From positions 59 through 64,058 of the forward strand of contig CAYNPY010000001.1 of assembly GCA_964399195.1 (NCBI GenBank): a stretch of DNA of 64,000 nucleotides, given 5' to 3'. Source of the stretch: an uncultured Fibrobacteraceae bacterium. Lineage in GTDB: Bacteria; Krumholzibacteriota; Krumholzibacteriia; LZORAL124-64-63. Both the position numbers and the translations under genes were made by a program. Each line of letters starts with the position of its first letter. The stretch's first letter is position 1. The notes under the pieces are model-generated. The model saw only the letters and a program-made list of their open reading frames with translations. It made no database searches and was not told the origin of the DNA. This document shows positions 7,937 to 64,000 of this stretch, in pieces.

Positions 7937-7949
7937 GGCGCCCGCCCCC

Positions 7950-26821: not shown

Positions 26822-26925
26822 CGGGCCGCCGCCCGGGCCAGCGCGAGGCAGTGGACGGGGATCGCCCGCGGCCTTATCGTCCCTGTCCCGGCCGCGTGCC
26901 CCCGGAACCCCGAAAGGACGACACC

Positions 26926-27905
<980 letters not shown>

Positions 27906-27909
<4 letters not shown>

Positions 27910-28802
27910 GCTCCCAGCTGCTGACCCCGGAACTGGCGGGGCAGCTCGGCCGGATCGACCTGGTGGCGCGGCTGGTCGTCGAGGGCTTCCTGCTGGGCCT
28001 CCACAAGAGCCCCTACCACGGCTTCTCGGCGGAGTTCGCCGAGTACCGGCAGTACATCCCCGGCGAGCCGGTGGCCAACATGGACTGGCGGGCCTACGCC
28101 AAGTCCGACCGGCACTACCTGAAGGTCTTCACCGAGGAGACGAACCTCCGCGCCACGATCCTGCTCGACTGCTCGGCGAGCATGGACTTCCGCGGCGACC
28201 AGCGGCGACCCGGCAAGAAGCGGTACGCCGCCTACCTCGCCGCGGCGCTCAGCTACCTCCTGCTGCGCCAGAACGACGCCGTGGGCCTGCTCACGTTCGA
28301 CCAGGCGCCCCTGGTCTCGGTGCCGGCGCGCTCGCTGCGCCGGCAGTTCTTCCAGGTGCTGAAGGTGCTCGACGACCTGCCCCCCGGCACGGGCACGGAC
28401 CTGGGCGCCGTGCTGCACCGCGTCGCCGAGCGCGTGCCGCGCCGGGGCTTGATCATCCTGTTGAGCGACCTGATGGACGACCCGGCGCGAATCATCGCGG
28501 GCCTCAAGCACTTCCGGCACCGCGGCCATGAGGTGATCGTGTTCCAGATCCTCGATCCCCGCGAGGTGGACCTCGATTATCGCGGCGAGGTCGAATTCGA
28601 GGCCCTCGAGCAGCCGGGACAGCGCGTGAGGCTGGAGCCCGCCCACCTCCGTGACGCCTATCGCGAGCGCTTCGAAGCGTGGCGCGCCGACCTGCGCCGC
28701 GAGTGCCGCCGCCAGCGTGTGGATCTGGTCGAGATCACGACCGACACCCCGTTCGCGCGGGGCCTGGGGGCCTACCTGCGCAAGCGCCGGCGGCTCTACT
28801 GA
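27906..28802 (+). CDS. DUF58 domain protein (vWA-like MoxR partner)
   Basis: The GTG start overlaps the MoxR stop (GTGA). The product carries HKSPYHGFSAEFAEYRQYIPGE and LLDCSASM, the canonical DUF58 signatures. Confidence 0.8.
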
Positions 28803-33172: not shown

Positions 33173-33205
33173 ACCAGGGGCCGCCGCCGCGCGCCCGGAA
33201 GGAAC

Positions 33206-36760
<3,555 letters not shown>

Positions 36761-38667: not shown

Positions 38668-40030
38668 CGGGGCGCGGGCCGGCGGGGTGGTCGGGGCCGT
38701 TTTCGGCGCGGGCGCGCTCGCCGGCGCGCCGGCGGCGCCGGCTCAGGAAGCCGAGCCGGCCGCGGCGACGCCGCCCGCGACCCCGGCGGAGGCGCCGACG
38801 CCGGTGCTGGTCGACCGGATCGTGGCGATCGTGGACGAGGAGCCGATCCTCCAGAGCGACCTCGAGCGCGAGACCGAGTTGTACCGGCTCGAACGCCAGT
38901 ACGCCGGCCAGCCCGTGGCCGACGATCCGGCCGTGGTGCGCCGGGAGATTCTCGACCGGCTGATCGAGAGCAAGCTCATCATCGCCGCGGCCAAGCAGGC
39001 CGACATGAGCGTCGACCCGGAAGCCGTCTCCGGCAGCGTCGACCAGAAGATCCGTCAGTTCGACGAGCACTTCGGCGGCCGCGAAGCGTTCGAGCGCGAG
39101 CTGGCGCGCGCAGGCATGACCCTGGCCGACTACCGCGCGCGCATGGCCGCCCAGCTGCGCGACCAGCAGTACCTGCGCCTGGTCGTGGGCAAGTTCATCC
39201 GGCCGGACATCGAGGTGCTCGAGAACGAGGTGCGGGACTACTACCTGGCGAACCTCGCCGAGATGCCCGCCGAGCCCGACAGCCTGACCATCGCCGACAT
39301 CCTGGTGCCCGTGCAGCCGTCGGTCGAGGCGCGTCGTCGCGTGCAGGAGAAGGTGGAGCGCATCCAGGCCGACCTGAAGGGCGGCCTGCCCTTCGCCGAC
39401 GCGGCGCGGCGCCATTCCGAGGACGCGGCCGCCGCGCGCGGCGGCCTGGTCGGTGCGGTCGGCAGGGAGGACCTCTACGACGCGGGCCTGGCGCGGGCAG
39501 TGTTCGCGCTCGCGGCCGGTCAGGTGAGCGAGCCTGTGGTGACCCCGCGGGGCGTGCACCTGGTGCGCGTGGACGAGGTGCGCGGTGACGGCAAGCGCGT
39601 CATCAGCCAGATCTTCCTGCCGGTCAGCGCCACCGAGCAGGACGTGGCGGCGGCGCGAGCGCAGGCCGACGCGGCGCGGGCGCGCGTGACCGGCGGCGAG
39701 TCGTTCGCGCTGGTTGCCTCCGAGGTCAGCGCCGATCTGGCTTCGGCCCGCAACGGCGGCGTCCTGGGCACGTTCCGGCTGGAGGACCTGAGCGAGACCT
39801 TCCAGGCGGCGCTGGCCGATCTGCCGGAAGGCGCGGTCAGCGAGCCCGTGCTGACGACCGCCGGCTGGTACGTGTTCAAGGTGCTCGCGCGCAAGCCGGG
39901 CCACATGTACACCTACGAGGAACTGTCGGAGCAGCTGCGGCAGGCGGTCGAATCGCAGAAGATCGAGGCGGCGCTCACCGAGTACGTCAAGGGCCTGCGC
40001 AAGCGCTTCTTCATCGAAGAGAAGAGCTGA
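38615..40030 (+). CDS. surA: SurA-like chaperone / peptidyl-prolyl isomerase (SurA_N + two parvulin domains)
   Basis: It has a signal peptide, a SurA N-terminal domain (VDRIVAIVDEEPILQSDL) and parvulin domains (RHSEDAAAARGGLVGAV, VVTPRGVHLVRVDE). The start is either ATG 38615 or GTG 38660, the latter overlapping the previous stop by 8 bp. Confidence 0.75.
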   Translation: MQRSRASSRPAPPPRVADGARAGGVVGAVFGAGALAGAPAAPAQEAEPAAATPPATPAEAPTPVLVDRIVAIVDEEPILQSDLERETELYRLERQYAGQPVADDPAVVRREILDRLIESKLIIAAAKQADMSVDPEAVSGSVDQKIRQFDEHFGGREAFERELARAGMTLADYRARMAAQLRDQQYLRLVVGKFIRPDIEVLENEVRDYYLANLAEMPAEPDSLTIADILVPVQPSVEARRRVQEKVERIQADLKGGLPFADAARRHSEDAAAARGGLVGAVGREDLYDAGLARAVFALAAGQVSEPVVTPRGVHLVRVDEVRGDGKRVISQIFLPVSATEQDVAAARAQADAARARVTGGESFALVASEVSADLASARNGGVLGTFRLEDLSETFQAALADLPEGAVSEPVLTTAGWYVFKVLARKPGHMYTYEELSEQLRQAVESQKIEAALTEYVKGLRKRFFIEEKS

Positions 40031-51924: not shown

Positions 51925-51966
51925 CCCGTCTTGACGCGGCGGAGACCGCCGTCCAGCGGCAGCGCA

Positions 51967-51995
51967 GCAAGGGGGAGCCGGCGGTTCCCCCTTGC
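51967..51995 (+). terminator. GC-rich hairpin (10-bp perfect stem GCAAGGGGGA/TCCCCCTTGC) downstream of lipoprotein gene
   Basis: It is a perfect inverted repeat with a 9-nt loop, 43 bp after the stop codon. It has no U-tract, so it is a terminator-like structure only. Confidence 0.35.
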
Positions 51996-52059
51996 GCGTG
52001 TCCGCACGCCGGACAAGCGCGGGCTGGTCGCAGCGCCGCCCCGCGCTTACCATGCGCGC

Positions 52060-53079
52060 ATGTCCAGCGGCCACGCCATCCCAACTTCTCCGCGGCAGGG
52101 TAAGCCGCGACCCCGGCAGCGGCGGGGATCTGCGGCGCTCGTCGCGTGCGCGCTGCTCGCGCTGGCGACCCTGGCCGGCTGCGGCCGCGACGACGCCCCT
52201 GACAGGATGGACACCTCGCGCGGCGACGCTCCGCGCGCGGCGACGGATCGGGCCACCGGGCCGGAGCCGGGCTCGGCGGCGGCGCCCGCGCCCGCGCTCC
52301 CGGCGGCGCCGGCGACCGAACCGGCCGACGGCGGCGCCTCCGCCGGTCCGCGCGTGGCGCTGGTGATCGACGACCTCGGCCAGAGGCTCGGCGGGCCCGA
52401 CGCCGCTCTGCTTGACCTGCCCGTGCCGCTGACGCTGGCGGTGCTGCCGGGCCGCCCGCAATCGCGCGCGATCGCCGACCGGGCGACGACGCCGCGCGGT
52501 CCGGACGACCCCGCCCGCCGCGAGCTGTTCCTGCACCTGCCGATGGAGCCCGAGGGCTACCCGAGCCCGGATCCCGGCCCGGGCGCGCTGCTGCGCGGGC
52601 AGTCGCCGGCGCAGGTGGCCGGGCTGCTGGACGGCGCCCTGGCCTCGGTGCCCGGCGCCGTGGGCGTCAACAACCACATGGGCAGCGCCGCGACCGCCGA
52701 CTCGCTGCTGATGTCGGCGCTGATGGCGGCCCTCGCCGAGCGGGGACTGCGCTTCCTGGACAGCCTGACCACGCCGCGCTCGGTCGCCTGGCGCGCCGCG
52801 CGGGAGGCGGGGGTGCCGACGGCGAGGAACCGGATCTTCCTGGACGCCGAGCCCGCGGACGAAGCCACCATCGCGGCCCGGCTGGCCGAACTGGTGGCCA
52901 CCGCGCGCCGGTCGGGCGCGGCGGTCGGGATCGCCCATCCGCACGCGGCGACCGCCGCGGTGCTGGCGCGCGACGTTCCGCGTTACCAGCAGGAGGGAGT
53001 GCGTTTCGTGACCGTCTCGGAACTGATGCCGCCGGCCGTGGCGGCGCTGGTCGAAGGCGGGGAGGACCATGGCCGCTGA
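52060..53079 (+). CDS. Divergent polysaccharide deacetylase family protein (YibQ-like), lipoprotein
   Basis: The lipobox is LATLAGCG. The domain carries RVALVIDDLGQ...LTLAVLP...HLPMEP...GVNNHMGS, which are YibQ/DUF610 signatures. The start is placed at ATG 52060 inside the track ORF 51931..53079. Confidence 0.7.
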   Translation: MSSGHAIPTSPRQGKPRPRQRRGSAALVACALLALATLAGCGRDDAPDRMDTSRGDAPRAATDRATGPEPGSAAAPAPALPAAPATEPADGGASAGPRVALVIDDLGQRLGGPDAALLDLPVPLTLAVLPGRPQSRAIADRATTPRGPDDPARRELFLHLPMEPEGYPSPDPGPGALLRGQSPAQVAGLLDGALASVPGAVGVNNHMGSAATADSLLMSALMAALAERGLRFLDSLTTPRSVAWRAAREAGVPTARNRIFLDAEPADEATIAARLAELVATARRSGAAVGIAHPHAATAAVLARDVPRYQQEGVRFVTVSELMPPAVAALVEGGEDHGR

Positions 53080-54166
53080 GGTCCTGTTCTGGCCGCTGCC
53101 GGCGGGCCCGGGCGCGGACCTCGCTCCGCCCGATCCCCGGCCCGGGTTGCGCCGGCTGGTCGCGGCCGCCGGCCTCGTCGGCGCCGCGCGCCCGGGCGAG
53201 CGCTGGCTGCTGAAGGCGCCCGTGCCGGCCCCGGGCCGGCCGCCGGCCGTACCGCCGGCCTGGCTCGAGGAACTCGGCGCCTCACTGGCCGGGCGCGCGG
53301 CGCCGCCCGCGCCGGCGGCCATCCATGTCACCGACACGCTGTCGATCTCCACGCGGGGCCTCGAGACGCCGGCCGGCCTGCGCGAGGCGGCCCTGGGCCG
53401 CGGCTACGGGGCGCCCGGCGCGCTGCCGTTCGTGGTCGGCGACGACCCGGCCGGGCCGCCGGCCTGGCCGCTGGCTGACGGGCCGCAGGGACACGCGCTG
53501 GCCGGCGTTCTGGCCGCGGCGGCCGGCCTGGCCGTCGTGGCCCCGCTGCGTCCGCACCCGCACCTGGGCGCGGTCGGCGCGGTGGCCGCGCTGGGCCTGG
53601 ACCTGGCCGACCGTGCTTCGCGCCTGGCCCTGCACCGGGGCATCAGGCCGCAGGTCGACACCCCGCTGTGCGCGGGCTGCGGCAGCTGCCTGGATGTGTG
53701 CCTCTACGACGCGATCGTCATCCGTGCCGGGCGCGCCGTGATCGACCACCGCCTGTGCACCGGCTGCGGGGAATGCATGGGCGTCTGCTTCATGGCCGGC
53801 ATCGCCCCCGAAGCGGCCGCCGGCGTGGCGGCCTTCCGGGCCGCGGTGGCCGCGGCGGCCGCCGGGACGGCCCGGCAGCTGGCCGCAGGGCCGGCGCGGC
53901 CGCTCCTGCACCTGGTCCTTTTGCTGAAACTGGACGCCCACGGGGGCGGCGGCCGGGCTCGCCGCCGGCCGCCGGTGGCCGGGATCGGGATCCTGGCCGG
54001 GCGCGATCCGGTGGCCGTCGACAGCGCAGCCTTCGACCTGCTGGCCGGGCGGCTGGGTGAACCCCTCAGCGGGTGGAGCGGGTACGCCCAGGCCCCCGAG
54101 CCGCTGCTGGACCACGCGGCGGCGCTGGGCCTGGGCACGCGGGAATACCGGCTGCGCGAGGTCTGA
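53069..54166 (+). CDS. DUF362 domain protein with two 4Fe-4S ferredoxin-type motifs
   Basis: The two Cys motifs are CAGCGSCLDVC and CTGCGECMGVC. It overlaps the previous gene by 11 bp. Confidence 0.55.
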   Translation: MAAEVLFWPLPAGPGADLAPPDPRPGLRRLVAAAGLVGAARPGERWLLKAPVPAPGRPPAVPPAWLEELGASLAGRAAPPAPAAIHVTDTLSISTRGLETPAGLREAALGRGYGAPGALPFVVGDDPAGPPAWPLADGPQGHALAGVLAAAAGLAVVAPLRPHPHLGAVGAVAALGLDLADRASRLALHRGIRPQVDTPLCAGCGSCLDVCLYDAIVIRAGRAVIDHRLCTGCGECMGVCFMAGIAPEAAAGVAAFRAAVAAAAAGTARQLAAGPARPLLHLVLLLKLDAHGGGGRARRRPPVAGIGILAGRDPVAVDSAAFDLLAGRLGEPLSGWSGYAQAPEPLLDHAAALGLGTREYRLREV

Positions 54167-54350
54167 GCCGCGCCCTAAATTCTGGATAATCAGGCGCCCG
54201 TGTGCTATCATGGCGGGCGCTGTTTCGCGAAGGGACAGGCCGGGAGCGGCGGGTGCCGGCCCGGTCTGCGCGCGCTTTTTTTTGTCGCGGTCGAGGATCC
54301 TCGTGCCGCCCGGGCCCGCAGCCGGGGGCAGAAGTCCCGGGAGAGCCAAG

Positions 54351-55961
54351 ATGAACCGTTCCCTGCAGATCCGGGCAGGGCTGAGCGCCGTGGTCGTCCT
54401 GCTGTCGATCTACGGCCTGCTGCCGACCTTCAAGGCCCTGTCGATCTCGCACGCCGAGCGGGAGGCCGCCAAGGCCAACCCCGAGCGGCTGGCCGAGATC
54501 GAGGCCATCGACGCCAAGGCGATCCGCCGCGGGCTCGACCTCAAGGGCGGCATGTACCTGGTCCTCGAGGTCGACCAGACCGGCATGGACGCGGGCCAGG
54601 CCCAGGACGCCCTGCAGAGGGTCAAGGAGATCCTCTACAACCGCATCGACAAGTTCGGCGTCTCGGAGCCCGAGATCACGACCTTCGGCTCCAGCCGCAT
54701 CGTCGTCAAGCTGCCCGGCCTTCAGGATCCCGAGCGCGCCAAGGCGCTGCTGGGCACCACGGCCAAGCTGGAGTTCCGGCTGGTGCGCCAGCCTGACGAC
54801 CTGCAGGACGCGTTGACGCGCCTGGACCAGGCGTTCGCCGGCAGCGTGCAGGCGCCGGCGGTCGCTCCCGGGGACTCGGCGCTGGTCGACCAGGAGCAGC
54901 TGCTGGCGCAGCGCCCGTTCAGCGGCCTGGTCGTCATGCAGCAGGGCATCGCCTCGACGCCGCTGTTCGTGGCGGAGGAAAACGTCGACCGCCTGCAGGC
55001 CATGCTGGACGATCCGCGCACGAAGGCGCGCCTGCGCGGCGTCGAGTTCCAGCTGGGCATGGATCCCATGAACTTCGGCGGCGCCACCCAGATGCGGCCG
55101 CTCTACCTGGTGGACGCCGAGCCGATCATCAGCGGCGACCAGCTGACCGACGCCCTCAGCACCGCCGACAACGAGCGGCCGGGCATGTGGCAGGTCAACT
55201 TCACCCTGGGCAGCCGCGGCGCCCGCGATTTCGGCCGCGCCACGGGCGAGAACGTGGGCCGTTTCCTGGCCATCTCGCTGGACGGGCGCATCTCCTCGGC
55301 GCCGGTCATCCAGTCGCGCATCACCAGCAACGGCTCGATCACCGGCAACTTCAGCAACGCCGAGGCCAGCGACCTGGCGCTGCTGCTGCGCGCCGGCGCG
55401 CTGCCGACGGACATCACCATCGCCGAGGAGCGCACCGTGGGACCGAGCCTGGGCTCGGACTCGATCCGCATGGGCGTGAACGCCGCCCGCTGGGGCGCGC
55501 TGCTGGTGGTCGTGTTCATGCTGATCTACTACCGCGGCGTCGGGCTGGTGGCCGTCACCGCGCTGGCGGCGAACATTCTGATCGTGCTGGCCGTGCTGGC
55601 CCAGTTCGACCTGGTGCTGACGCTGCCGGGCCTGGCCGGCATCGCGCTGACGGTCGGCATGGCGGTCGACGCCAACGTGCTGATCAACGAGCGCATCCGC
55701 GAGGAGCTGCGCAAGGACAAGACGGTGCGCGCCGCGGTGGAGGCCGGCTACCAGAACGCGACGCGCACGATCATCGACGCCAACGTGACGACGCTGATCG
55801 CCGGCGGCGTGCTGCTGTGGTTCGGCACCGGTCCGGTCAAGGGTTTCGCCGTCACGATGTGCATCGGCATCCTGACGAGCATGTTCACCGCCCTGGTCCT
55901 GACCCACGCGATCATGGACCTGGTCACGCGCAACCGGAATCGGCAGACGCTGAGCATCTGA
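54351..55961 (+). CDS. secD: Protein translocase subunit SecD
   Basis: The ATG at 54351 has a GGGAGAG RBS and lies inside the longer track ORF. The product has a SecD periplasmic domain and the six-TM SecD/SecF core (GLAGIALTVGMAVDANVLINERIREE). Confidence 0.9.
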   Translation: MNRSLQIRAGLSAVVVLLSIYGLLPTFKALSISHAEREAAKANPERLAEIEAIDAKAIRRGLDLKGGMYLVLEVDQTGMDAGQAQDALQRVKEILYNRIDKFGVSEPEITTFGSSRIVVKLPGLQDPERAKALLGTTAKLEFRLVRQPDDLQDALTRLDQAFAGSVQAPAVAPGDSALVDQEQLLAQRPFSGLVVMQQGIASTPLFVAEENVDRLQAMLDDPRTKARLRGVEFQLGMDPMNFGGATQMRPLYLVDAEPIISGDQLTDALSTADNERPGMWQVNFTLGSRGARDFGRATGENVGRFLAISLDGRISSAPVIQSRITSNGSITGNFSNAEASDLALLLRAGALPTDITIAEERTVGPSLGSDSIRMGVNAARWGALLVVVFMLIYYRGVGLVAVTALAANILIVLAVLAQFDLVLTLPGLAGIALTVGMAVDANVLINERIREELRKDKTVRAAVEAGYQNATRTIIDANVTTLIAGGVLLWFGTGPVKGFAVTMCIGILTSMFTALVLTHAIMDLVTRNRNRQTLSI

Positions 55962-56046
55962 CGCGGCTGCGGCCGCCACGCGAACCGCCGCGCCCCGCGC
56001 GGCCCGACAGGAGCCGGGTCCCGACCCGGGAAAGGCCAAGAGCGAC

Positions 56047-56982
56047 ATGCTGCAGTTCTTCCGGAACGCCAACTTCAATTTCGTCGGCGCCATGAAGCCG
56101 TGCTTCGTCGCCTCGGCGGCGCTGGTGGTCGTCAGCCTGGTCCTGATGCTGATCCACGGCGGACCGCGGCTGAGCATCGACTTCACCGGCGGCTCCGTGC
56201 TTCAGGTGAAGTTCGCCGCCAGCCCCGGCATCAGCCAGGTGCGCGCCGACCTCGAGGCCAAGGGCTACGCCGGCGTCCAGGTGACGGAGTTCGGCGCCGC
56301 CAACGAGTACCTGATCACGGTGGCCTCGGCGAAGAACGCCAGCGGCGAGCAGGCGGCCGACACGGCCCAGAAGCTGCTGGAAGACCTGCGCACCACCTTC
56401 CCCGCCGCCGGCGTGGAGCTGCGGCGCGTGGAGTCGGTCGGTCCGAAGATCGGCGGCGAGCTGCGCACGGCGGCCATCAACTCGATCATCGCCGGCCTGT
56501 TCATGATCATCATCTACATCTGGCTGCGCTTCGTGCTGCGTTACGGTTTCGCGGCCATCGCGGCCCTGGTCCACGACGTGACGCTGACCCTGGGCATCTT
56601 CTCGCTGCTGGACCTGGAGGTCAGCCTGCAGATCGTGGCCGCGCTGCTGACGATCGTCGGCTACTCGATCAACGACACCATCGTGGTCTTCGACCGCATC
56701 CGCGAGAACATGAAGCTGCGCCGCAAGGAGAGCTACCGCGAGGTCATCAACCGCTCGATCAACGAGACGCTCAGCCGCACCATCCTGACCTCGGCCACGA
56801 CGATGGTGGTCTCGGTGATGCTGTGGACCATGGGCGGGCCGGTGATCCGGGACTTCGCCTTCGCGCTGAGCTTCGGCATCTTCATCGGCACGTACAGCTC
56901 GATCTTCATCGCCAGCCCGCTGCTGGTCTGGTGGTACGAGCGCCGGGCCGTCGATTCGAAGCGGGCGGCGCCGACGATGTAG
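56047..56982 (+). CDS. secF: Protein translocase subunit SecF
   Basis: The product carries IDFTGGS, a six-TM core and VVFDRIREN. It follows secD. Confidence 0.9.
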   Translation: MLQFFRNANFNFVGAMKPCFVASAALVVVSLVLMLIHGGPRLSIDFTGGSVLQVKFAASPGISQVRADLEAKGYAGVQVTEFGAANEYLITVASAKNASGEQAADTAQKLLEDLRTTFPAAGVELRRVESVGPKIGGELRTAAINSIIAGLFMIIIYIWLRFVLRYGFAAIAALVHDVTLTLGIFSLLDLEVSLQIVAALLTIVGYSINDTIVVFDRIRENMKLRRKESYREVINRSINETLSRTILTSATTMVVSVMLWTMGGPVIRDFAFALSFGIFIGTYSSIFIASPLLVWWYERRAVDSKRAAPTM

Positions 56983-57096: not shown

Positions 57097-58227
57097 TCAG
57101 GGATCCAGAGGCTGGACGCCGGGGACGGTCGCGCGGTGGCATTCGAGGCAGGCCCTGCCCTGGTCGTGGTTCTGCCCGTGGCACTTGCGGCACAGCTGGC
57201 GCTGATCCGGGTCGGGGTAGGGGCTCGGCAGGGGCCAGGAGCCGGAGGCGACGCCGTCGTCGGCCAGGTGGTAGACGCGGAAGTCCCAGCGCCCGGACGC
57301 CGGCGCCGACGAGGCGTGCGCGCGGTGGCAGGTCAGGCAGTGCAGGCGCCCGGCGGTGCCCGGCCCGGCGGTGCGGTCGACCGCGGCGTCGGCGGCCTCG
57401 AAGGGGACCTCCGGCAGGTACGACGTCCCGGCCGCGCCGCCGGTGGGGTTCGCATCGCCGTCGTACATCTCGTAACGCCGCCGCACGCCGGAATCGAGCA
57501 GTTCGTCGACAGGATGCCCGAAGGCCGTCCCGCCGCTGTCGTGGTAGAAGCCGTGGCAGTTCGCGCACCAGCGCGTCATGCCCGAGACGTAGGCGCTGTG
57601 CGCCAGCCTCGACTCCACCGCCGCCGGATCGGTCACCGGGAGCCCGACGGCCACCGGCGCCGGGTAGGCGAAGTGGGCGATGCCGCCCTGCACGGGTCCA
57701 ACGCCGCGCAACATCCGGAAGCCGGCGGTGCCGTGCGGGTCGTGGCAGCTGGTGCAGCCCAGCGAGGCGGACGGAAACGTGCCGCCGGGCGCGCGGGACC
57801 AGCGGCTCTCGGCGGTCAGCCCCCAGGCCGGGGAGACGATGCTGTGGCCGGCGGCCTCGCCGGGCAGGCGCGGCGCCAGGGGGTCGGTGGCGTCGTCCAG
57901 GTCGTCCTCCAGCAGGAACACGAAGTTGCCCGCGCCGAGTTCGCGCGGCGGCTGCAGCGGGTTGAGTCCCATGACGCCGTCGCCGTGGCAGGTCAGGCAG
58001 AGGTCGGTCGAGGAGGCGGCCAGCAGCAGCGGCCGCAGCCCGTCCAGCGCCACCTGTCCGGCGGCGGCGTCGTGCATCACGTGGCAGCGTTCGCAGGTGC
58101 CCACGCCGCCGTCGTGGAACGCGCCGGCCGCGGGCGGAAGGCAGGCGCCGACGGCGGCCAGCGCAACCGCGGCAGCCGCGGCGCGCGGGCGCCGGGAATC
58201 TGAGGATCGGTATGCAGGGATCGCCAT
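57097..58227 (-). CDS. Multiheme c-type cytochrome (7 CxxCH motifs), secreted, 376 aa
   Basis: The ATG at 58227 gives a product starting MAIPAYR with a signal peptide. The heme-binding motifs are CERCH, CLTCH, CTSCH, CANCH, CLTCH, CRKCH and CLECH. It is a paralogue of the next gene. Confidence 0.85.
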   Translation of the reverse strand: MAIPAYRSSDSRRPRAAAAAVALAAVGACLPPAAGAFHDGGVGTCERCHVMHDAAAGQVALDGLRPLLLAASSTDLCLTCHGDGVMGLNPLQPPRELGAGNFVFLLEDDLDDATDPLAPRLPGEAAGHSIVSPAWGLTAESRWSRAPGGTFPSASLGCTSCHDPHGTAGFRMLRGVGPVQGGIAHFAYPAPVAVGLPVTDPAAVESRLAHSAYVSGMTRWCANCHGFYHDSGGTAFGHPVDELLDSGVRRRYEMYDGDANPTGGAAGTSYLPEVPFEAADAAVDRTAGPGTAGRLHCLTCHRAHASSAPASGRWDFRVYHLADDGVASGSWPLPSPYPDPDQRQLCRKCHGQNHDQGRACLECHRATVPGVQPLDP

Positions 58228-58423: not shown

Positions 58424-59530
58424 CTAGTGGGTGGCGCCGGGATGGTCGTACTGATCCTTCGCGTGGCACTTGTTGCACAGCGAGCGCTGGTTGGCCACGA
58501 ACGTGTAGTTGTAGTACTTGCGGTCGACGTCGGTCTGCACGAAGCCGACATCCGACGTGTTCGGGTGCGACTGCGAGATGAAGTTCACGCCCATGTCCCA
58601 GCGCGCGATGTCCGCGAACGGCGAGGCGTGCGCGCGGTGGCAGCTCAGGCACATGACTTCATCGACGCCCGTCGGGCCCTGCGTGTAGTTCGCGGGATCG
58701 GCGGTGGCCAGGTCGACGTTGACGGCCTCGAACGGCACCAGACCCCAGTACGAGGTGGCTTCGTTGCCGCTGACCAGGTCGTCCGAGCTCACGTACGCGT
58801 TGTAGGTCGCCGCGACCAGCGAGCCCATGGGCCGCGTCGGGTGCGTGAAGTCGGTCGTGTAGTCGGAGTGGAAGTCCCGGTGGCAGTTGGCGCACCAGTC
58901 GCTCATGCCGCTCTTGTAGATGGTGTGGTCGGTGTTCGTCTCCACGCCCGGCTGCGTGCCGTACGTGTTGCGCGAGTTGCCCTTGGCCAGCGGGGCCGGG
59001 TACTGGAAGCTGTACCGGGTGCCGCCGTAGATCGGGCCCATCTGGGTGCCGTAGAGCAGGCGGAAGTTCTCGTTGCCGTGCGGGTCGTGGCAGCTCGTGC
59101 AGCCGAGGCGCGAGCTGAGGAAGCTGCCGCCCGGGGCCGACGCCAGGGTGGCGTCCTGCGCGATGCCGCGCGCCGGCGAGATCACGTTGTGGCCGTGGCT
59201 GTCACCGGTGCTGTTGTACGTCGTGCCGCGCGACACCCAGGAGAAGGTGCGCGTGACCCAGTAGAAGTCGCCGCCGGGGCCGTAGCCCTCGCCGCTGCGG
59301 AACTGGCCGTAGTTGGCGTGGCAGCGCAGGCAGGTGTCCGAGGCACTGCCGGCGTTCAGCAGGTAGGCGTTGCCGTTCGGGTGAGCGGCGTCCACCGGCG
59401 CGCCGTTCTGGCTGTTGTGCATGGTATGGCAGCCGGCGCAGTAGGCGACGCCGGCGTCGTGGAACGCCAGCACCGAGCTGGCCGACAGGCCGAGCGCCAG
59501 CACCAGGGCGATCTTGATGAAAGTCTTCAC
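58424..59530 (-). CDS. Multiheme c-type cytochrome (6 CxxCH motifs), secreted, 368 aa
   Basis: The GTG start has a GGAGG RBS. The product starts MKTFIKIALVLALGLSASSVLA. The motifs are CAGCH, CLRCH, CTSCH, CANCH, CLSCH and CNKCH. It shares the LGCTSCHDPHG / WCANCH / CL[ST]CHRAHAS blocks with the 57097..58227 gene. Its composition is Asn/Tyr/Thr/Ser-rich and its GC is lower than its neighbours. Confidence 0.85.
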   Translation of the reverse strand: MKTFIKIALVLALGLSASSVLAFHDAGVAYCAGCHTMHNSQNGAPVDAAHPNGNAYLLNAGSASDTCLRCHANYGQFRSGEGYGPGGDFYWVTRTFSWVSRGTTYNSTGDSHGHNVISPARGIAQDATLASAPGGSFLSSRLGCTSCHDPHGNENFRLLYGTQMGPIYGGTRYSFQYPAPLAKGNSRNTYGTQPGVETNTDHTIYKSGMSDWCANCHRDFHSDYTTDFTHPTRPMGSLVAATYNAYVSSDDLVSGNEATSYWGLVPFEAVNVDLATADPANYTQGPTGVDEVMCLSCHRAHASPFADIARWDMGVNFISQSHPNTSDVGFVQTDVDRKYYNYTFVANQRSLCNKCHAKDQYDHPGATH

Positions 59531-59712: not shown

Positions 59713-60702
59713 CTATTCAACCGTCCCGGCGGCCAGGACGCTGAACACCTGCACGCGACCGCGATAGCCCTGCGCCACGTAGAGGCGCCCGCCGGCGTCC
59801 GTCGCGATGGACACCGGATGGTAGAAGGCGCCCGGCGCGTCGCCGACCACGCCGAATTCACCGCTGAACTCCTGCCGGGCGTCGAAGGCCAGGACCTTGT
59901 GCCGCATCTGGTCCAAAACCAGCAGCGAGCCGTCCGGGCCGGCCGCCACGGCCACCGGCGCCACGAACCGGCCGGGCGAGGCGCCGAAGCGCCCGAACGA
60001 CGCGCGCACGGCGCCGCCTTCCTCGACCAGCAGGATCCGGTGCAGGTTGGCGCCGGGCACCGCGTAGGTGCCGTCCGGCAGCTGGACCGGCCGCCCGAGG
60101 CCCAGTTCGAGTCCGCGGTCGCCGCTCTCGGGCTCGGCGATGACTGCCGACCACAGGACGGCGCCGGTTTCGGCGTCGTGCTTGGCCATCAGGCCGCTCG
60201 CGTCGTCGACCGTGACGTAGTTGCCGTCGCGGGCGACCAGCACGCGACCCGGGCGCCAGCCTTCGCGCGGCGCCTGGGCGGCCCAGCCGTCGGGCTCGCC
60301 GTACACGTCCAGCCGCGCGAGCGTGCGCCGGGCGCCTCCGCTGAGCGAGACGGCGACCAGGCGGCCGGCGTGGTCGATGGCGCCGTCGACCGGCTGCGAC
60401 AGTTCCGCGTAGCCGGAGGTGCGGAAGGCCTCGACGCCCGCGGCGTTGAACACGTGCAGCACGCCGTGCGCGGCGTCGGTCACGACCATGCCGCCGGTGC
60501 GGTCGTCGCAGGTGACGGCCGCGGGCAGCAGGCGCCCGTCCTCGTGGCGCTGCAGTTCAAGGCTCGATTCGTAACGGAACTCGAAACGGTATCCGGCTGT
60601 CCTCGCGTCGGTTGCGGACAGGGCCGGCGCAGGGAGGGCAGATGCGAGCAGGGCCAGCGCCGCGCTTGTCAGCGCGCCAACACCCCACGGGTGTCGGTGC
60701 AT
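59713..60702 (-). CDS. Secreted NHL-repeat beta-propeller protein
   Basis: It has a signal peptide (ALTSAALALLASALPAPALSA) and repeated [YF]-x-P-x-G[IV]A / GR[LI][YL]VAD-like NHL blades (GRLYVAQGYRGRVQVF). Confidence 0.65.
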   Translation of the reverse strand: MHRHPWGVGALTSAALALLASALPAPALSATDARTAGYRFEFRYESSLELQRHEDGRLLPAAVTCDDRTGGMVVTDAAHGVLHVFNAAGVEAFRTSGYAELSQPVDGAIDHAGRLVAVSLSGGARRTLARLDVYGEPDGWAAQAPREGWRPGRVLVARDGNYVTVDDASGLMAKHDAETGAVLWSAVIAEPESGDRGLELGLGRPVQLPDGTYAVPGANLHRILLVEEGGAVRASFGRFGASPGRFVAPVAVAAGPDGSLLVLDQMRHKVLAFDARQEFSGEFGVVGDAPGAFYHPVSIATDAGGRLYVAQGYRGRVQVFSVLAAGTVE

Positions 60703-60920
60703 GCAAACTGCGGCCAAGGTGCGGGGCATCTGTCACGCTCACGTCATGAAGCCGGGGTTTGCGGCGCCCAAGCGGGCTTTTCTTGTCACGGAGATATCAT
60801 ATCACATGGGCGGTGGATGTCAATCATGTCGCCAAAAAAAAAACGTGGGTTCGGTCATGCAGATGACTTTCGCTATCAAAACCTGACCGACCGTCATTCG
60901 GGAAGCCGGTCGCCATGGTG

Positions 60921-60962
60921 GAAAAAACGGCCCCGGCGGCGCCGCGAGGGCACCGCCGGGGC
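60921..60962 (-). terminator. Rho-independent terminator of the giant cytochrome gene (10-bp stem GCCCCGGCGG/CCGCCGGGGC, then U6 on minus strand)
   Basis: On the minus strand the hairpin is followed by CGUUUUUUC. It lies 49 bp downstream of the stop at 61011, in a 300-bp lower-GC intergenic region that also contains an A10/T10 run (60836-60845). Confidence 0.65.
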
Positions 60963-61010
60963 TCGCTGTCCGTGGTCCGCCGAACGGGCCGCGGGCGGCT
61001 GCGCCGCCGC

Positions 61011-64000
61011 TCAGCCTCCCGTCCGCAGCTTGTCGGAGTGGCAGCCGACGCAGAGCTTGCCCTCCGGATCGTCGCGCATGAACCGCGCGAACGGCGAGCC
61101 ATGGGGGTCGTGGCAGCTGCCGCAGGTCATCGTCCGGCCTGTCCGGGGGTCGATCGCGTCCTCGCCGATCGGGTGGTCGGTGTGGTCGCGATAGGTGTGG
61201 CAGCTGAGGCAGACTTCCCGCTGGGTCTTGCCGTCGGCGCCGATTCCGCTCAGGTGCGGGTCGTGGCAGGCGGTGCAGTCGCGGCCGTCGACCACCGGAT
61301 GCCGGTGCGCCGCGGTCCGGTTGGCGTCCGCCTCGGCCTGGTGGCAGCGGGCGCAGACCAGCGCCTGGCGGGCCGGCAGCAGCGGCGAGACCGGCGCCGT
61401 GTGCGCCGCGTGGCAGTTGGTGCAGGCATCTTCGCCGGCCAGCGCGCCGTGCAGCTTGGCGTCCTTCAGGCTGGCCGCCAGGCCGGGGTGGCAGGACAGG
61501 CACAGCGCCGGCTGGGCCTGCTTGGTCGCCACGGCCGTGCCGGCATGGCAGGCGGCGCAGTTGCCGGCCCCGAAGGGCTGGTGCACGTGTTCGTGCGGCA
61601 GGTTCGCGCGCTTGGCCGCGTGCGGAGCGTGGCAACCCGAGCAGTCGGCCTGTGCGACCGGGAAGCCGCGGTGCTTGGCCGGCAACCCTGCCGGCGCGTG
61701 GCACCTGGCGCACAAGACGCTCGGCTGGTCCAGGAGGCTCATCGCCTGATTCGTGCCGTGCGGGTCGTGGCAGCGCGTGCAGTCGCCCGAGCGCAGCGGC
61801 GCGTGCACGACCGGCCACTTCTTCTGGGCCTCGACCGCCTCGTGGCAGCTCGAGCAGAGCGCGGCGGCCGGCTTGACCAGCAGCTTCGGCTCGCTCGAGG
61901 CGTGCGCCTGGTGGCAGGCTTCGCAGCGGCCGTCCCGCACCGGCGTGTGGGCCAGCTCGGGCTTCGGGGCCAGGTCGGCCGGCGCGTGGCAGGCGGCGCA
62001 GGCGTCGCTGGTCCGCGCCGACGGCAGCAGGGCCGGGCCGCGGGCCACGTGCGGGTTGTGGCAGGAGGCGCAGTCGCCTTCGGCGAACGGCGCGTGCGTC
62101 GTCTGCCGCGGCGCCGACGGCTCCGGCAGGCCGTCGTGGCACTGCAGGCACGTCTGGCGCTGGTCGGTCACCGGCGCGGCGCCCTCGTGGCACGAGGCGC
62201 AGTCGCGGTCGCCGAACGGGGCGTGCGCGGCGGCGGCCATCAGCCCCGGCGCGGTGGAGTGGTGCGGCTCGTGGCAGCCCAGGCAGTCCATCCGCAGCGG
62301 ATCGCGCCCGAGATGCTTGTCGGCGAAACCGGCGCTCTTCTCGTCGTGGCAGCCGAAGCAGAGGCCCGGGGCCGGCTCGCGCAGGAACCCGGCGCCCGCG
62401 CCGCCATGCGGCAGATGGCAGTCCAGGCAGGCGTCGCGGCTCGGGGGGTGGATGGACACCGCGCCCTTCGGCGCGGCCACGTCCTCGTGGCACAGGGCGC
62501 AGAGCTTGTCGGCGTCGGTCGCCAGCAGCGCCTTGCGCGGCGAGCGGTGCGCGTCGTGGCACGCGGTGCAGTTGCCGGCGGCCACCGGTTCGTGCCCGCG
62601 CCAGTCGCCTCCCGCCGGCGTTCCCGTGTCGTGGCAGGCGGCGCACGTCGCCCCCGGCGCCTGGCGCAGCAGGCCGCGCTCGGGTCCGCCGTGGGGCAGG
62701 TGGCAGTCCAGGCAGGCGCCCTCGGCAGCGGGCGCGTGGAGCGTCCCTCCGGCCGGCTGCTGGTCGAAGCCGGCGTGACAGCCGGCGCACAGGGCGGCCG
62801 AGGCGTTCTTGAGCAGCGCGGGCTGCGGCGCCGTGTGCGGCAGGTGGCAGGCGGTGCACTCGCCGCGCGCGGCGACCGCGTGCGGGTACGTCGCGATCGT
62901 CTCCATCTGCACCTTGGTGTGGCAGCCCAGGCAGAGCGAGCCGACGGTGTCGACCAGCAGCGTCTTGCGCTCGGAACTGTGCGGCGTATGGCAGACCGTG
63001 CAATCCCGCTTGACCAGCGGCGCGTGCACCGAGGCCGGAGCCGGCGCGGCATCGTCCGGCAGGACGCCCGCATGGCAGCCCGCGCAGAGCGTGTTGGTCG
63101 CCTCCTTCAGCAGCCCCTTGTGGTCGGAGCCGTGGGCGCCATGGCAGGTGGTGCAGTCCCCGCTGGCCACGGGTTCGTGGCGCACCGGCAGCTGGAACGG
63201 CTGCTCCTCGTGGCACTCCAGGCACAGACGCCGCTCCTCGGCGACCAGCAGCGCCGGACGCGCGCTGCCGTGCGGCGCATGGCACTGCCCGCATTCCTTC
63301 GACGCGGCGGGCTCGTGCGGCACCTTGAAGGCCGCCGACGGATCCTCGTGGCACTGCAGGCAGAGCTCGGCGGCCGGCACGGCCAGCGCGGCGCCGCCCG
63401 CCGCGTCGGCGGCATGGCACGCCGAGCAGTCGTTGTCCTGCATCGGCGCGTGGGTCACGGCGTGCAACAGGCCCTCGGAGTCCGAGCTGTGCGGGTCGTG
63501 GCAGGAGACGCAGCCGGCCAGCCCGCCCTGCCCGCCATGGTCGCGCTGGAGGCGCGCGCGGTCGGCATGGCAGCCGAAGCAGAGATCGTCGCCGGCGCGG
63601 ACCAGGAGCCCCCGGTGCGCCGAGGAGTGCGGGTCGTGGCAGGCCGCGCAGCCCTCGCGGGCGAGCGGCCGGTGGACGTGGCGGCGCTTGAAGGGGGCAT
63701 CCTCGTGGCAGGCCAGGCAGGACTGCCACCCGGGAGCGGACAGCAGCCCGGGGTGGCCCGAGCCGTGCGGATCGTGGCAGGCCGAGCAATCGCCCTCGCG
63801 CAGCGGCTCGTGGACGACCGCGGCGCGCGTCACGTCCTTGTAGCCCTCGTGGCAGGCCAGACACAGGTCCCGGCCCGAGGCCTGCAGGACCAGCTTGCCG
63901 ATCACGCCGTGCCGCCGGTGGCAGCCCTCGCAGTTGCGCGTCGCGAACGGCTCGTGCGCGTTCTTGGTCGGCACCTGCTTGAGCGTTTCCTGATGGCAGT
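61011..64000 (-). CDS. Giant polyheme c-type cytochrome, at least 41 CxxCH motifs in the window; 5' end lies beyond the window
   Basis: The 61011..63974 frame is an uninterrupted series of CxxCH motifs (CEGCH, CLACH, CSACH, ...) in repeating units of about 75 aa with about 3 hemes each, resembling c7/c3-type triheme modules. The reading frame stays open to the window edge, where the upstream codons read ...CHQETLKQ, another heme motif. The alternative frame 60820..63864 has no heme motifs and is Arg/Pro/Gly-rich, so it is rejected. Confidence 0.85.
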   Translation of the reverse strand, partial: CHQETLKQVPTKNAHEPFATRNCEGCHRRHGVIGKLVLQASGRDLCLACHEGYKDVTRAAVVHEPLREGDCSACHDPHGSGHPGLLSAPGWQSCLACHEDAPFKRRHVHRPLAREGCAACHDPHSSAHRGLLVRAGDDLCFGCHADRARLQRDHGGQGGLAGCVSCHDPHSSDSEGLLHAVTHAPMQDNDCSACHAADAAGGAALAVPAAELCLQCHEDPSAAFKVPHEPAASKECGQCHAPHGSARPALLVAEERRLCLECHEEQPFQLPVRHEPVASGDCTTCHGAHGSDHKGLLKEATNTLCAGCHAGVLPDDAAPAPASVHAPLVKRDCTVCHTPHSSERKTLLVDTVGSLCLGCHTKVQMETIATYPHAVAARGECTACHLPHTAPQPALLKNASAALCAGCHAGFDQQPAGGTLHAPAAEGACLDCHLPHGGPERGLLRQAPGATCAACHDTGTPAGGDWRGHEPVAAGNCTACHDAHRSPRKALLATDADKLCALCHEDVAAPKGAVSIHPPSRDACLDCHLPHGGAGAGFLREPAPGLCFGCHDEKSAGFADKHLGRDPLRMDCLGCHEPHHSTAPGLMAAAAHAPFGDRDCASCHEGAAPVTDQRQTCLQCHDGLPEPSAPRQTTHAPFAEGDCASCHNPHVARGPALLPSARTSDACAACHAPADLAPKPELAHTPVRDGRCEACHQAHASSEPKLLVKPAAALCSSCHEAVEAQKKWPVVHAPLRSGDCTRCHDPHGTNQAMSLLDQPSVLCARCHAPAGLPAKHRGFPVAQADCSGCHAPHAAKRANLPHEHVHQPFGAGNCAACHAGTAVATKQAQPALCLSCHPGLAASLKDAKLHGALAGEDACTNCHAAHTAPVSPLLPARQALVCARCHQAEADANRTAAHRHPVVDGRDCTACHDPHLSGIGADGKTQREVCLSCHTYRDHTDHPIGEDAIDPRTGRTMTCGSCHDPHGSPFARFMRDDPEGKLCVGCHSDKLRTGG

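What the first reader, a model, noticed from the sequence alone, without database searches (positions are those of the whole stretch)
61011..64000. Giant cytochrome is built from a tandemly repeated triheme unit of about 75 aa and continues past the window
Within 987 aa I count about 41 CxxCH motifs. They fall into a recurring pattern: C-x2-CH-x(8-12)-H-x(10-20)-C-x2-CH-x(10-14)-C-x2-CHxPH. This is the signature of concatenated cytochrome c7/c3 modules, where the extra His residues would give bis-His ligation. The open frame reaches the window edge inside another heme motif, so the protein is larger still. The alternative overlapping frame in the ORF track (60820..63864) is an artefact. Proteins with this many hemes are rare. 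They are candidates for nanowire-like or capacitor-like function.
Basis: seen in the sequence. Interest (0 to 1): 0.8.

Follow-up and report, generated by a model that had tools for sequence, protein, structure and literature searches.

The report
Fused 42-heme cytochrome wire gene
The window ends inside a real gene for a 42-heme electron-carrying protein that is a fusion of two neighbouring cytochromes (26 + 16 hemes) of the gene cluster that builds OmcS-type "nanowires"; it is built from two-heme units, not three-heme units, and only 51 amino acids lie beyond the window.

Summary
The motif count is right: 41 CxxCH plus one cut motif in 995 codons on the minus strand, against 0.6 expected by chance. 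A 99.9%-identical contig gives the whole gene: 1046 aa, a Sec signal peptide and 42 CxxCH. Only 51 aa lie outside the window.

The architecture 9+17+9+7 hemes is identical in 79 homologues at 33-39% identity, from Zixibacteria, Krumholzibacteria, Latescibacteria and Gemmatimonadota. In Geobacter and many other lineages the same 42 hemes are split over two adjacent genes of 26 and 16 hemes. These occupy the positions of OscI/GSU2495 and OscJ/GSU2494. The window protein is their fusion.

Its neighbours are an OmcS homologue (E 4e-51 to PDB 6EF8), an OmcS-like paralogue, an NHL propeller, a prolyl isomerase, LpoB-like proteins and a large outer-membrane barrel. This is an osc-type nanowire cluster in a Krumholzibacteriota genome.

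Most likely function: an all-bis-His periplasmic wire feeding OmcS-like cytochromes. I rate it a new variant of a known kind.

The parts
61011..64000 (-). 42-heme c-type cytochrome gene. The window holds the C-terminal 995 codons plus the stop. The gene start lies about 151 nt beyond the window edge (equivalent coordinate 64151).
   Evidence: Open frame and 41 CxxCH. Full gene of 1046 aa with 42 CxxCH on L001 6579-9719, which is 99.86% identical to the window. PF09699 x22, TIGR01905 x21.
62151..64000 (-). OscI-like part (hemes 1-26, aa 1-667 of the full protein; blocks of 9 and 17 hemes)
   Evidence: End-to-end BLASTP matches to separate 26-heme proteins from Geobacter sp., Zixibacteria, Krumholzibacteria, Acidobacteriota and Ignavibacteria loci: 34-39% id, E 1e-138 to 1e-160. 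Same a/B architecture string.
61014..62150 (-). OscJ-like part (hemes 27-42, aa 668-1046; blocks of 9 and 7 hemes). It is joined to the first part by a 12-aa linker, with no signal peptide.
   Evidence: Best BLASTP matches are the separate 16-heme proteins that follow the 26-heme gene in other genomes: 32-38% id, E 1e-68 to 1e-92. Linker sequence.
60930..60962 (-). Intrinsic-terminator-like hairpin 49 nt after the cytochrome stop codon
   Evidence: 14-bp stem with 13 G-C pairs, followed by a T run. This is a consensus match only.
60796..60823 (-). Sigma-70-like promoter ahead of the NHL gene
   Evidence: TTGACA-16-TATGAT with an upstream TG, 11 of 12 matches. It is the only such site in 4.2 kb; shuffles give 0.1.
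59713..60729 (-). NHL-repeat beta-propeller protein (338 aa, signal peptide)
   Evidence: Pfam NHL. The identical protein lies on 22 public contigs. Homologues sit next to OmcS-like genes in Geomonas, Zixibacteria, Ignavibacteria and Nitrospirae loci.
58424..59530 (-). OmcS homologue (368 aa, 6 CxxCH). The mature N-terminus FHDAGVAYCAGCHTMH resembles FHSGGVAECEGCHTMH of OmcS.
   Evidence: phmmer E 3.8e-51 to PDB 6EF8/6NEF OmcS, covering both halves of the protein. 43% identity in alignment A4.
57097..58227 (-). Second OmcS-like cytochrome (376 aa, 7 CxxCH), followed by a terminator-like hairpin at 57060-57033
   Evidence: 39% identical to the first OmcS-like protein and shares its motifs GM(S/T)xWCANCH and CL(S/T)CHRAHAS. 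Hairpin.

Best explanation
The feature is the gene for a secreted, all-bis-His, 42-heme c-type cytochrome of a Krumholzibacteriota bacterium.

Building block. The protein is made of 19 diheme 'doubled CXXCH' units of 46-53 aa. Each unit is CxxCH...HxP...CxxCHxxH, so it supplies the two distal histidines for its own two hemes. Three further single hemes each follow a degenerate unit that has lost one heme site together with the matching His, and one single heme ends the chain.

Fusion. The chain joins two cytochromes that most other lineages encode as adjacent, often overlapping genes. One has 26 hemes and sits in the position of OscI/GSU2495 of Geobacter sulfurreducens. The other has 16 hemes and sits in the position of OscJ/PccJ/GSU2494.

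Cluster. The gene sits in an osc-type (omcS-companion) cluster. The order is: a 7-heme cytochrome, a large outer-membrane beta-barrel, an LpoB-like lipoprotein, a 345-aa protein, a periplasmic prolyl isomerase, the 42-heme fusion, then an NHL propeller and two OmcS homologues.

Inferred mechanism. The hemes form one continuous MtrA-like chain. This chain carries electrons through the periplasm, and possibly through the barrel, between inner-membrane or periplasmic redox partners and the extracellular OmcS-like cytochromes.

What the fusion implies. By Rosetta-stone logic, the separate 26- and 16-heme proteins of Geobacter dock end to end into the same 42-heme wire.

Shown versus inferred. Shown: gene integrity, heme count, diheme unit, fusion, homology of the neighbours, and the MtrA-like predicted fold. 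Inferred: localisation, direction of electron flow, contact with the barrel and the OmcS-like filaments, and the overall shape.
For: - Integrity and count.
- Diheme period: 22 PF09699 stretches, lag-2 autocorrelation, 18 regex matches at about 48 aa.
- Bis-His: every motif Cys/His plus about 40 extra His are invariant in 53 sequences. In the three degenerate units, the missing heme site and the missing CxxCHxxH histidine are lost together.
- Fixed architecture: 79 of the 120 best homologues share the identical 42-heme string at 33-39% id. 22 have 26 hemes, equal to the first two blocks.
- Split form: adjacent 26- and 16-heme genes in 16 loci. The gap is -4 or -1 nt in 9 of them. The hemes sum to 42 in 13 of the 16; in the other three the 16-heme gene is cut by the locus end.
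- N and C parts match the separate proteins end to end.
- Neighbours: OmcS homologue at E 3.8e-51 to 6EF8; PPIase, LpoB and NHL. The same set occurs in the same order around the 26-heme gene in Geomonas edaphica and G. silvestris.
- Literature: GSU2495 is a 26-heme, ~70 kDa protein (PMC12977616). GSU2495 = oscI and GSU2494 = oscJ, both predicted periplasmic, in the osc operon with OscH (folding), OscEFG (secretion) and OscD (PMC13194489). The eight-gene block GSU2500-2493 always accompanies the OmcS-like GSU2501 (PMC12977616). 21-27-heme periplasmic cytochromes are judged long enough to span the periplasm (PMC10734462).
- Lineage: Mfd is 66-77% identical to named Krumholzibacteriia proteins.
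Against: - No experiment bears on this protein.
- I could not obtain the GSU2495 or GSU2494 sequences, so the link to OscI/OscJ rests on heme count, gene order and homologues in Geobacter sp. and Geomonas loci.
- A GSU2494 mutant is reported to have a wild-type phenotype on Fe(III) oxide (cited in PMC9248073), so the wire may be dispensable or redundant.
pTM is only 0.52.
- In one complete Zixibacteria genome the 42-heme gene sits without OmcS-like neighbours within 10 kb.
- A terminator-like hairpin and a promoter-like site separate the cytochrome gene from the OmcS-like genes, so co-expression is not guaranteed.
Confidence: 0.6

Rival explanations
1. One reading: a concatemer of triheme cytochrome c7/c3 modules of about 75 aa, like the dodecaheme GSU1996 type, expanded by recent tandem duplication.
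For: Pfam Cytochrome_C7 (E 7e-43, 13 stretches) and Cytochrom_c3_2 (E 2e-42) do match. Three intervals of 71-73 aa between CxxCHxxH motifs exist.
Against: - These Pfam hits are far weaker than PF09699 (E 7e-201).
- The lag-3 similarity is as low as lag 1, while lag 2 is three times higher.
- There is no DNA tandem repeat with the unit period.
- Units are only 25% identical to each other outside Cys/His, and the architecture is fixed across phyla. The duplications are therefore ancient.
Confidence: 0.04
2. A periplasmic electron store (capacitor). The 42 hemes mainly buffer charge when external acceptors are unavailable, rather than forming a directed conduit to the OmcS-like proteins.
For: There are 42 low-spin bis-His hemes at about 24 aa per heme. 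A capacitor role is discussed for large periplasmic multiheme cytochromes in PMC10734462. A GSU2494 mutant has no phenotype (PMC9248073).
Against: Storage does not explain three observations:
- the total is held at exactly 42 in both fused and split forms across many phyla;
- the fold is MtrA-like;
- the gene is tightly linked with a barrel, a PPIase and OmcS-like genes.
The two roles are not mutually exclusive.
Confidence: 0.2
3. An exported, cell-surface or extracellular wire. The protein is itself secreted through the barrel/LpoB-like machinery and acts outside the cell, alone or together with the OmcS-like filaments.
For: The cluster is reported to be a secretion and assembly machinery for cytochrome filaments (PMC13194489, PMC12977616). 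The protein has a plain Sec signal and no lipobox. Some loci carry CsgG-like or LpoB-like genes directly upstream.
Against: GSU2495 and GSU2494 are listed as periplasmic, a localisation prediction (PMC13194489). The fold resembles the periplasmic/trans-barrel MtrA, not surface cytochromes such as MtrC or OmcS. No inter-subunit motif comparable to that of OmcS is evident.
Confidence: 0.12
4. Artefact: a pseudogene, or a misassembly or frameshift that joined two genes.
For: None, beyond the general risk in metagenome assemblies.
Against: - The frame is uninterrupted with GC3 0.94.
- An independent assembly differs at 12 of 8321 nt and by one residue. 22 contigs carry the identical neighbouring gene.
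- 79 independent homologue clusters have the same fused architecture with in-frame linkers of 16-29 aa.
Confidence: 0.02

Closest known systems
OscI (GSU2495, 26 hemes) and OscJ/PccJ (GSU2494) of the Geobacter sulfurreducens omcS-companion (osc) cluster (Shen et al. 2025, Cell Chem Biol; as cited in PMC13194489 and PMC12977616)
   Same: - The 26-heme count and the position directly after the prolyl-isomerase gene.
- It is followed by a second cytochrome and lies in a cluster with an OmcS-like gene, LpoB-like lipoproteins, a protein of about 730 aa and NHL/propeller proteins.
- 26- and 16-heme proteins from Geobacter sp. and Geomonas loci align end to end with the two halves.
   Different: - Here the two are one polypeptide with a 12-aa linker and a single signal peptide.
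- The gene order of the cluster is rearranged: the OmcS-like genes lie downstream, behind a terminator and a promoter.
- The host is Krumholzibacteriota, not Desulfuromonadota.
- Sequence identity is only about 32-39%.
- The GSU sequences themselves were not compared.
MtrA / DmsE-family decaheme cytochromes (Shewanella Mtr complex, PDB 6R2Q chain A)
   Different: It has 42 hemes instead of 10. The profile matches as ten partial stretches, not as one decaheme domain. No MtrC-type surface decaheme is present; OmcS-like hexahemes take that place. Insertion into the barrel is untested.
PCC3 periplasmic multiheme cytochromes (21-27 hemes) and the Uet complex (UetJ doubled-CXXCH undecaheme with a PPIase, NHL proteins and a porin) of iron-oxidising and electrotrophic Proteobacteria (PMC10734462)
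   Same: Long, peptide-minimised doubled-CXXCH cytochromes encoded with a porin, a prolyl isomerase and NHL-repeat proteins. They are proposed to span the periplasm.
   Different: The heme counts and partner cytochromes differ, and there are no OmcS-like genes. Homology to those proteins was not tested here.
Polymeric c7-type cytochromes such as the dodecaheme GSU1996
   Same: Repetitive, heme-dense, proposed 'nanowire' proteins of metal reducers, from the same Pfam clan of multiheme cytochromes.

Membership tests
Doubled-CXXCH multiheme cytochromes (Pfam PF09699 Paired_CXXCH_1 / TIGR01905) | Profile match above the curated cut-off | tested here: met
   PF09699: 650 bits against a cut-off of 20.6, 22 stretches. 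TIGR01905: 621 bits against 25.2, 21 stretches.
Doubled-CXXCH multiheme cytochromes (Pfam PF09699 Paired_CXXCH_1 / TIGR01905) | Two CxxCH motifs per unit of about 40-50 aa, each unit with its own distal His | tested here: met
   19 units of 46-53 aa. 18 regex matches. About 40 invariant extra His in 53 homologues.
Triheme cytochrome c7/c3 concatemers (GSU1996 type) | Repeat unit of three hemes in about 70-80 aa | tested here: not met
Lag-3 score 4.9 against lag-2 score 15.2.
Triheme cytochrome c7/c3 concatemers (GSU1996 type) | c7/c3 fold | tested here: not met
MtrA/DmsE decaheme family (TIGR03508) | Single decaheme domain of about 300 aa | tested here: not met
   42 hemes. The profile is hit in 10 partial stretches, the best covering positions 73-225 of 258.
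MtrA/DmsE decaheme family (TIGR03508) | MtrA-like heme-chain fold | tested here: met
MtrA/DmsE decaheme family (TIGR03508) | Threaded through a cognate outer-membrane barrel | not testable with these tools
   A large barrel is encoded three genes upstream, but no complex prediction was possible.
OscI + OscJ of the osc (omcS-companion) cluster | 26-heme cytochrome followed by a second multiheme cytochrome | tested here: met
   The N part has the 26-heme architecture and the C part the 16-heme architecture. End-to-end BLASTP to separate proteins. GSU2495 has 26 hemes (PMC12977616).
OscI + OscJ of the osc (omcS-companion) cluster | Encoded in a cluster with an OmcS-like hexaheme, a prolyl isomerase directly upstream, LpoB-like lipoproteins, a protein of about 730 aa and a propeller protein | tested here: met
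   The same components lie in the same order around the 26-heme gene in Geomonas.
OscI + OscJ of the osc (omcS-companion) cluster | Orthology to the G. sulfurreducens proteins GSU2495 and GSU2494 themselves | not testable with these tools
   Their sequences were not retrievable, and Shen et al. 2025 (PMC11845295) is not held. The link is through Geobacter sp. and Geomonas homologues and published gene order.
OmcS family (neighbour gene 58424-59530) | Sequence homology over the whole hexaheme protein, six CxxCH, OmcS-like mature N-terminus with CxxCHTMH | tested here: met
   E 3.8e-51 to 6EF8 over residues 23-359. 6 CxxCH. Whether it polymerises was not tested.

The most novel reading that the evidence does not exclude
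The fixed total of 42 hemes acts as a molecular ruler. It is held constant whether encoded as one chain or as 26 + 16, across at least seven phylum-level lineages. On this reading the fused protein is a single-polypeptide wire about 30 nm or more in length (scaled from MtrA). It reaches from the inner membrane across the whole periplasm and through the OscE-like barrel to the foot of an OmcS-like filament. The fusions, which probably arose more than once, would also reveal that Geobacter OscI and OscJ dock end to end into the missing periplasmic link of the OmcS nanowire pathway.
Probability: 0.25. Interest if true: 0.8.

Novelty: new variant of a known kind. Interest (0 to 1): 0.55.

Why it matters
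How electrons get from the inner membrane to OmcS-type filaments is unsettled, and the roles of the large osc-cluster cytochromes OscI and OscJ are undefined in the papers I could read.

A natural fusion of the two, found in many uncultured lineages and with the heme total conserved at 42, gives a concrete and testable prediction: the two proteins form one continuous heme chain.

The result also extends complete OmcS-type clusters to Krumholzibacteriota and their relatives, where they bear on iron cycling in sediments.

For the scan itself, it corrects the unit (diheme, not triheme), the size (1046 aa, not open-ended) and the context.

Tried and rejected
- Plus-strand reading of 61011-64000: Ala/Arg/Gly-rich with no CxxCH. 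The gene is on the minus strand.
- Triheme periodicity: rejected.
- Recent tandem duplication: TRF finds only trivial 9-18-nt repeats. Units are about 25% identical.
- The search for related loci with the 26-heme alignment A2 failed because no stretch was conserved enough. I used an OmcS-based alignment instead. That search did not return G. sulfurreducens itself or the window's own genome; the best hit was a Krumholzibacteriia MAG at 71%.
- The Foldseek afdb50 library was unavailable.
- Shen et al. 2025 could not be read, and no preprint was found.
- Literature searches for '42 heme' found nothing relevant.
- Model coordinates are not exposed, so I could not measure the length or shape of the predicted chain or check which His faces which heme.
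- NJ trees of the two halves suggest that the fused genes are not monophyletic. The window and L012 fall among split forms, apart from a 73-member fused clade, and linker lengths differ. Distance trees of repetitive proteins are weak evidence, so I give this only as a probability.
Full report
OBSERVATION

Read from base 63998 downwards, the frame is open for 995 codons and ends at a stop at 61011-61013. It contains 41 CxxCH motifs plus a 'CH' cut by the window edge, with 83 Cys and 93 His. Shuffling the same residues gives 0.63 motifs on average and at most 5.

Codon-position GC is 0.74/0.57/0.94, as expected for a true gene in this 73% G+C genome.

FULL LENGTH

The neighbouring NHL protein occurs with an identical sequence on 22 public contigs. 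Contig L001 overlaps the window over 8321 nt with 12 mismatches and extends beyond it. There the gene is 1046 aa with 42 CxxCH. It starts with a Sec-type signal peptide (MHRTG...AAAPALA/AGPF) and has no lipobox.

Only 51 residues therefore lie outside the window, and the protein is not open-ended. It differs from the window copy by one residue.

REPEAT UNIT

The triheme model fails.
- Pfam finds 22 copies of the doubled-CXXCH domain PF09699 (E 7e-201), and NCBIfam finds 21 of TIGR01905. Cytochrome_C7 and c3 profiles match far more weakly.
- I cut the protein at each CxxCH and aligned the segments without their motif. The mean score is 15.2 at lag 2, against 3.8 at lag 1 and 4.9 at lag 3.
- Two segment types alternate. 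Type 'a' is CxxCH followed after 8-20 residues by H-x-P. Type 'B' is CxxCHxxH, often CxxCHxPH, followed by LL.
The diheme pattern has 18 matches about 48 aa apart.
- There are 19 regular units of 46-53 aa.
- At three places a B segment carries an extra H-x-P tail and is followed by a heme that lacks the xxH histidine. This looks like a unit that lost one heme site and, with it, the histidine that would have ligated that heme.

The architecture is (aB)4-a, (aB)8-a, (aB)4-a, (aB)3-a, which makes 9+17+9+7 = 42 hemes.

In an alignment of 53 homologues, every motif Cys and His and about 40 additional His are invariant.

There is no DNA-level tandem repeat of the unit. Units are on average 25% identical outside Cys/His, with a maximum of 40%. 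The duplications are old.

FAMILY

Of the 120 best database matches, 79 have exactly 42 CxxCH and the identical a/B string, although they are only 33-39% identical to the query. They are 986-1100 aa long. Where named, they come from Zixibacteria, Krumholzibacteria, Latescibacteria, Gemmatimonadaceae and 'FCB group' MAGs, annotated only as 'cytochrome c3 family protein'. Another 22 have 26 hemes, with the string of the first two blocks.

CONTEXT

Downstream on the same strand lie:
- an NHL-repeat propeller (59713-60729);
- a 368-aa hexaheme cytochrome (58424-59530);
- a 376-aa paralogue (57097-58227).

The 368-aa protein is a clear OmcS homologue: E 3.8e-51 to PDB 6EF8 over its whole length. 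Its mature N-terminus FHDAGVAYCAGCHTMH compares with FHSGGVAECEGCHTMH of OmcS.

Upstream, outside the window on L001, lie:
- a 7-heme cytochrome;
- a 732-aa protein with no Pfam match that ends in ...YWTF;
- an LpoB-like lipoprotein;
- a 345-aa secreted protein;
- a secreted PPIC-type prolyl isomerase.

This gene set corresponds to the omcS-companion (osc) cluster of Geobacter sulfurreducens as described in papers I could read:
- OscH is the folding factor, OscE/F/G act in secretion and OscD in filament morphology. GSU2501 (oscC) is OmcS-like. GSU2495 is oscI and GSU2494 is oscJ, both predicted periplasmic (PMC13194489).
- GSU2495 has 26 hemes and about 70 kDa. The block GSU2500-2493 always accompanies the GSU2501-type gene (PMC12977616).

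The primary paper (Shen et al. 2025) was not available.

In the isolate Geomonas edaphica the order is: NHL, OmcS-like, a 465-aa lipoprotein, a 745-aa protein ending in F, an LpoB-like protein of 189 aa, a 365-aa lipoprotein, a 609-aa PPIase, a 26-heme cytochrome, then a further cytochrome. tblastn links the window organism's LpoB-like, PPIase, NHL and OmcS-like proteins to it.

THE FUSION

I scanned 79 GTDB loci that encode OmcS relatives.
- 25 carry a 26-heme gene.
- In 16 of these it is directly followed by a gene whose heme string is the 16-heme pattern (aB)4-a-(aB)3-a. In three of the 16 that gene is cut by the locus end.
- The apparent gap between the two genes is -4 or -1 nt in 9 cases.
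- 26 + 16 = 42, and 9+17 followed by 9+7 is exactly the window protein's architecture.

BLASTP confirms the fusion. Residues 1-667 match the separate 26-heme proteins end to end (34-39% id, E 1e-138 to 1e-160). Residues 668-1046 match the separate 16-heme proteins best (32-38% id, E 1e-68 to 1e-92). The loci compared are from Geobacter sp., Zixibacteria, Krumholzibacteria, Acidobacteriota, Ignavibacteria and Thermodesulfobacteriota.

The separate 16-heme proteins have their own signal peptides. In the window protein the junction is a 12-residue linker (CASCH-EGAAPVTDQRQT-CLQCH).

The linker spacing is 17 aa in the window and in its closest full relative L012 (51% id, same gene order). It is 19-29 aa in the main fused clade, 24 in a third group and 16 in P0015.

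In neighbour-joining trees of both halves, the window and L012 fall among split forms rather than with the 73-member fused clade. Fusion has probably happened more than once, but these trees are rough.

STRUCTURE

I could not access the coordinates, so the overall shape and length are not measured. From my own knowledge, MtrA's ten hemes span about 80 A. Scaling from that, a straight 42-heme chain would exceed 30 nm. PMC10734462 notes that 21-27-heme periplasmic cytochromes could already span the periplasm.

ORGANISM

The window encodes Mfd (33173-36760). Its best named relatives are Krumholzibacteriia at 66-77% identity, with unnamed 'bacterium' MAG proteins at 88-95%. The OmcS-like protein's best GTDB hit is a Krumholzibacteriia MAG at 71%. 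OmcS genes in Krumholzibacteria from an iron-fed bioreactor were reported before (PMC7914226).

MECHANISM

Shown:
- an intact, secreted cytochrome with 42 CxxCH sites and a matching set of conserved distal His, built of diheme units;
- a fusion of the two large osc-cluster cytochromes;
- an MtrA-like predicted fold;
- a location in a cluster with a large outer-membrane barrel, a periplasmic PPIase and OmcS homologues.

Inferred:
- the hemes form one continuous chain that moves electrons across the periplasm, and perhaps through the barrel, to or from extracellular OmcS-like cytochromes;
- the split proteins of Geobacter assemble into the same chain.

Against a strong claim:
- the GSU2494 mutant has a wild-type phenotype (PMC9248073);
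- the barrel and lipoproteins are proposed to be a secretion channel for OmcS;
- one Zixibacteria genome has the gene without OmcS-like neighbours;
- a terminator-like hairpin (60962-60930) and a near-consensus promoter (60823-60796) separate the cytochrome gene from the NHL and OmcS-like genes.

A capacitor role and an extracellular location remain possible.

VERDICT

It is a member of a well-populated yet essentially uncharacterised family. The specific points I could not find in the literature searched are the fixed total of 42 hemes and the OscI-OscJ fusion. I rate it a new variant of a known kind, of moderate interest.

Noticed in passing
window 58424-59530 (-) and 57097-58227 (-): Two OmcS-family cytochromes (6 and 7 CxxCH). 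The first is 43% identical to Geobacter OmcS and keeps the CxxCHTMH N-terminus. This is an OmcS-type system in a Krumholzibacteriota genome. Whether either protein polymerises is unknown.
   Followed up: partly
window 60930-60962 and 60796-60823 (-): A strong terminator-like hairpin lies just after the 42-heme gene. A near-consensus extended -10 sigma-70 promoter lies ahead of the NHL gene. The cluster therefore seems to be split into at least two transcription units.
   Followed up: no
L001 1358-3556 (outside the window, upstream of the cytochrome gene): A 732-aa protein with no Pfam match is predicted to be a large outer-membrane beta-barrel with an inserted domain of about 170 aa. It is likely the OscE equivalent. 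It is conserved at 37-88% identity in 26 database clusters.
   Followed up: partly
L010, L043, L024, L057, L028, L032 and other loci: The 16-heme cytochrome has the same heme string as the first 16 hemes of the 26-heme one, so the pair is itself an old duplication. Many separate 26-heme proteins have a lipobox-like 'AC' at the N-terminus, whereas the fused protein has a plain signal peptide.
   Followed up: no
P0042 (1629 aa, 52 CxxCH) and P0087/P0118 (35 CxxCH): Other relatives show different regular super-repeats, for example (aB)2-a-(aB)4-a repeated, or aaa(Ba)3 repeated. The diheme unit has been assembled into several distinct fixed architectures.
   Followed up: no
L074 (contig labelled Candidatus Heimdallarchaeota MAG): A 26-heme plus 15-heme pair and an OmcS-like gene lie on a contig binned as an Asgard archaeon. 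This is possibly a binning error or a transfer.
   Followed up: no
window 61195-63843 (+): Three long antisense ORFs (184-344 aa) with GC3 0.94-0.96 lie opposite the cytochrome gene. This is the usual mirror-frame artefact of a 73% G+C genome.
   Followed up: partly
window 53069-54166 (+), 51931-53079 (+), 54057-56982 (+): A DUF362/4Fe-4S protein, a divergent polysaccharide deacetylase and SecD/SecF lie convergent to the cytochrome cluster. Elsewhere the window holds Mfd (33173-36760), a SurA-like PPIase (38426-40030), an RND pump (4541-8002), BatA/VWA (28655-30922) and a SpoIIE-type phosphatase (25496-26995).
   Followed up: no
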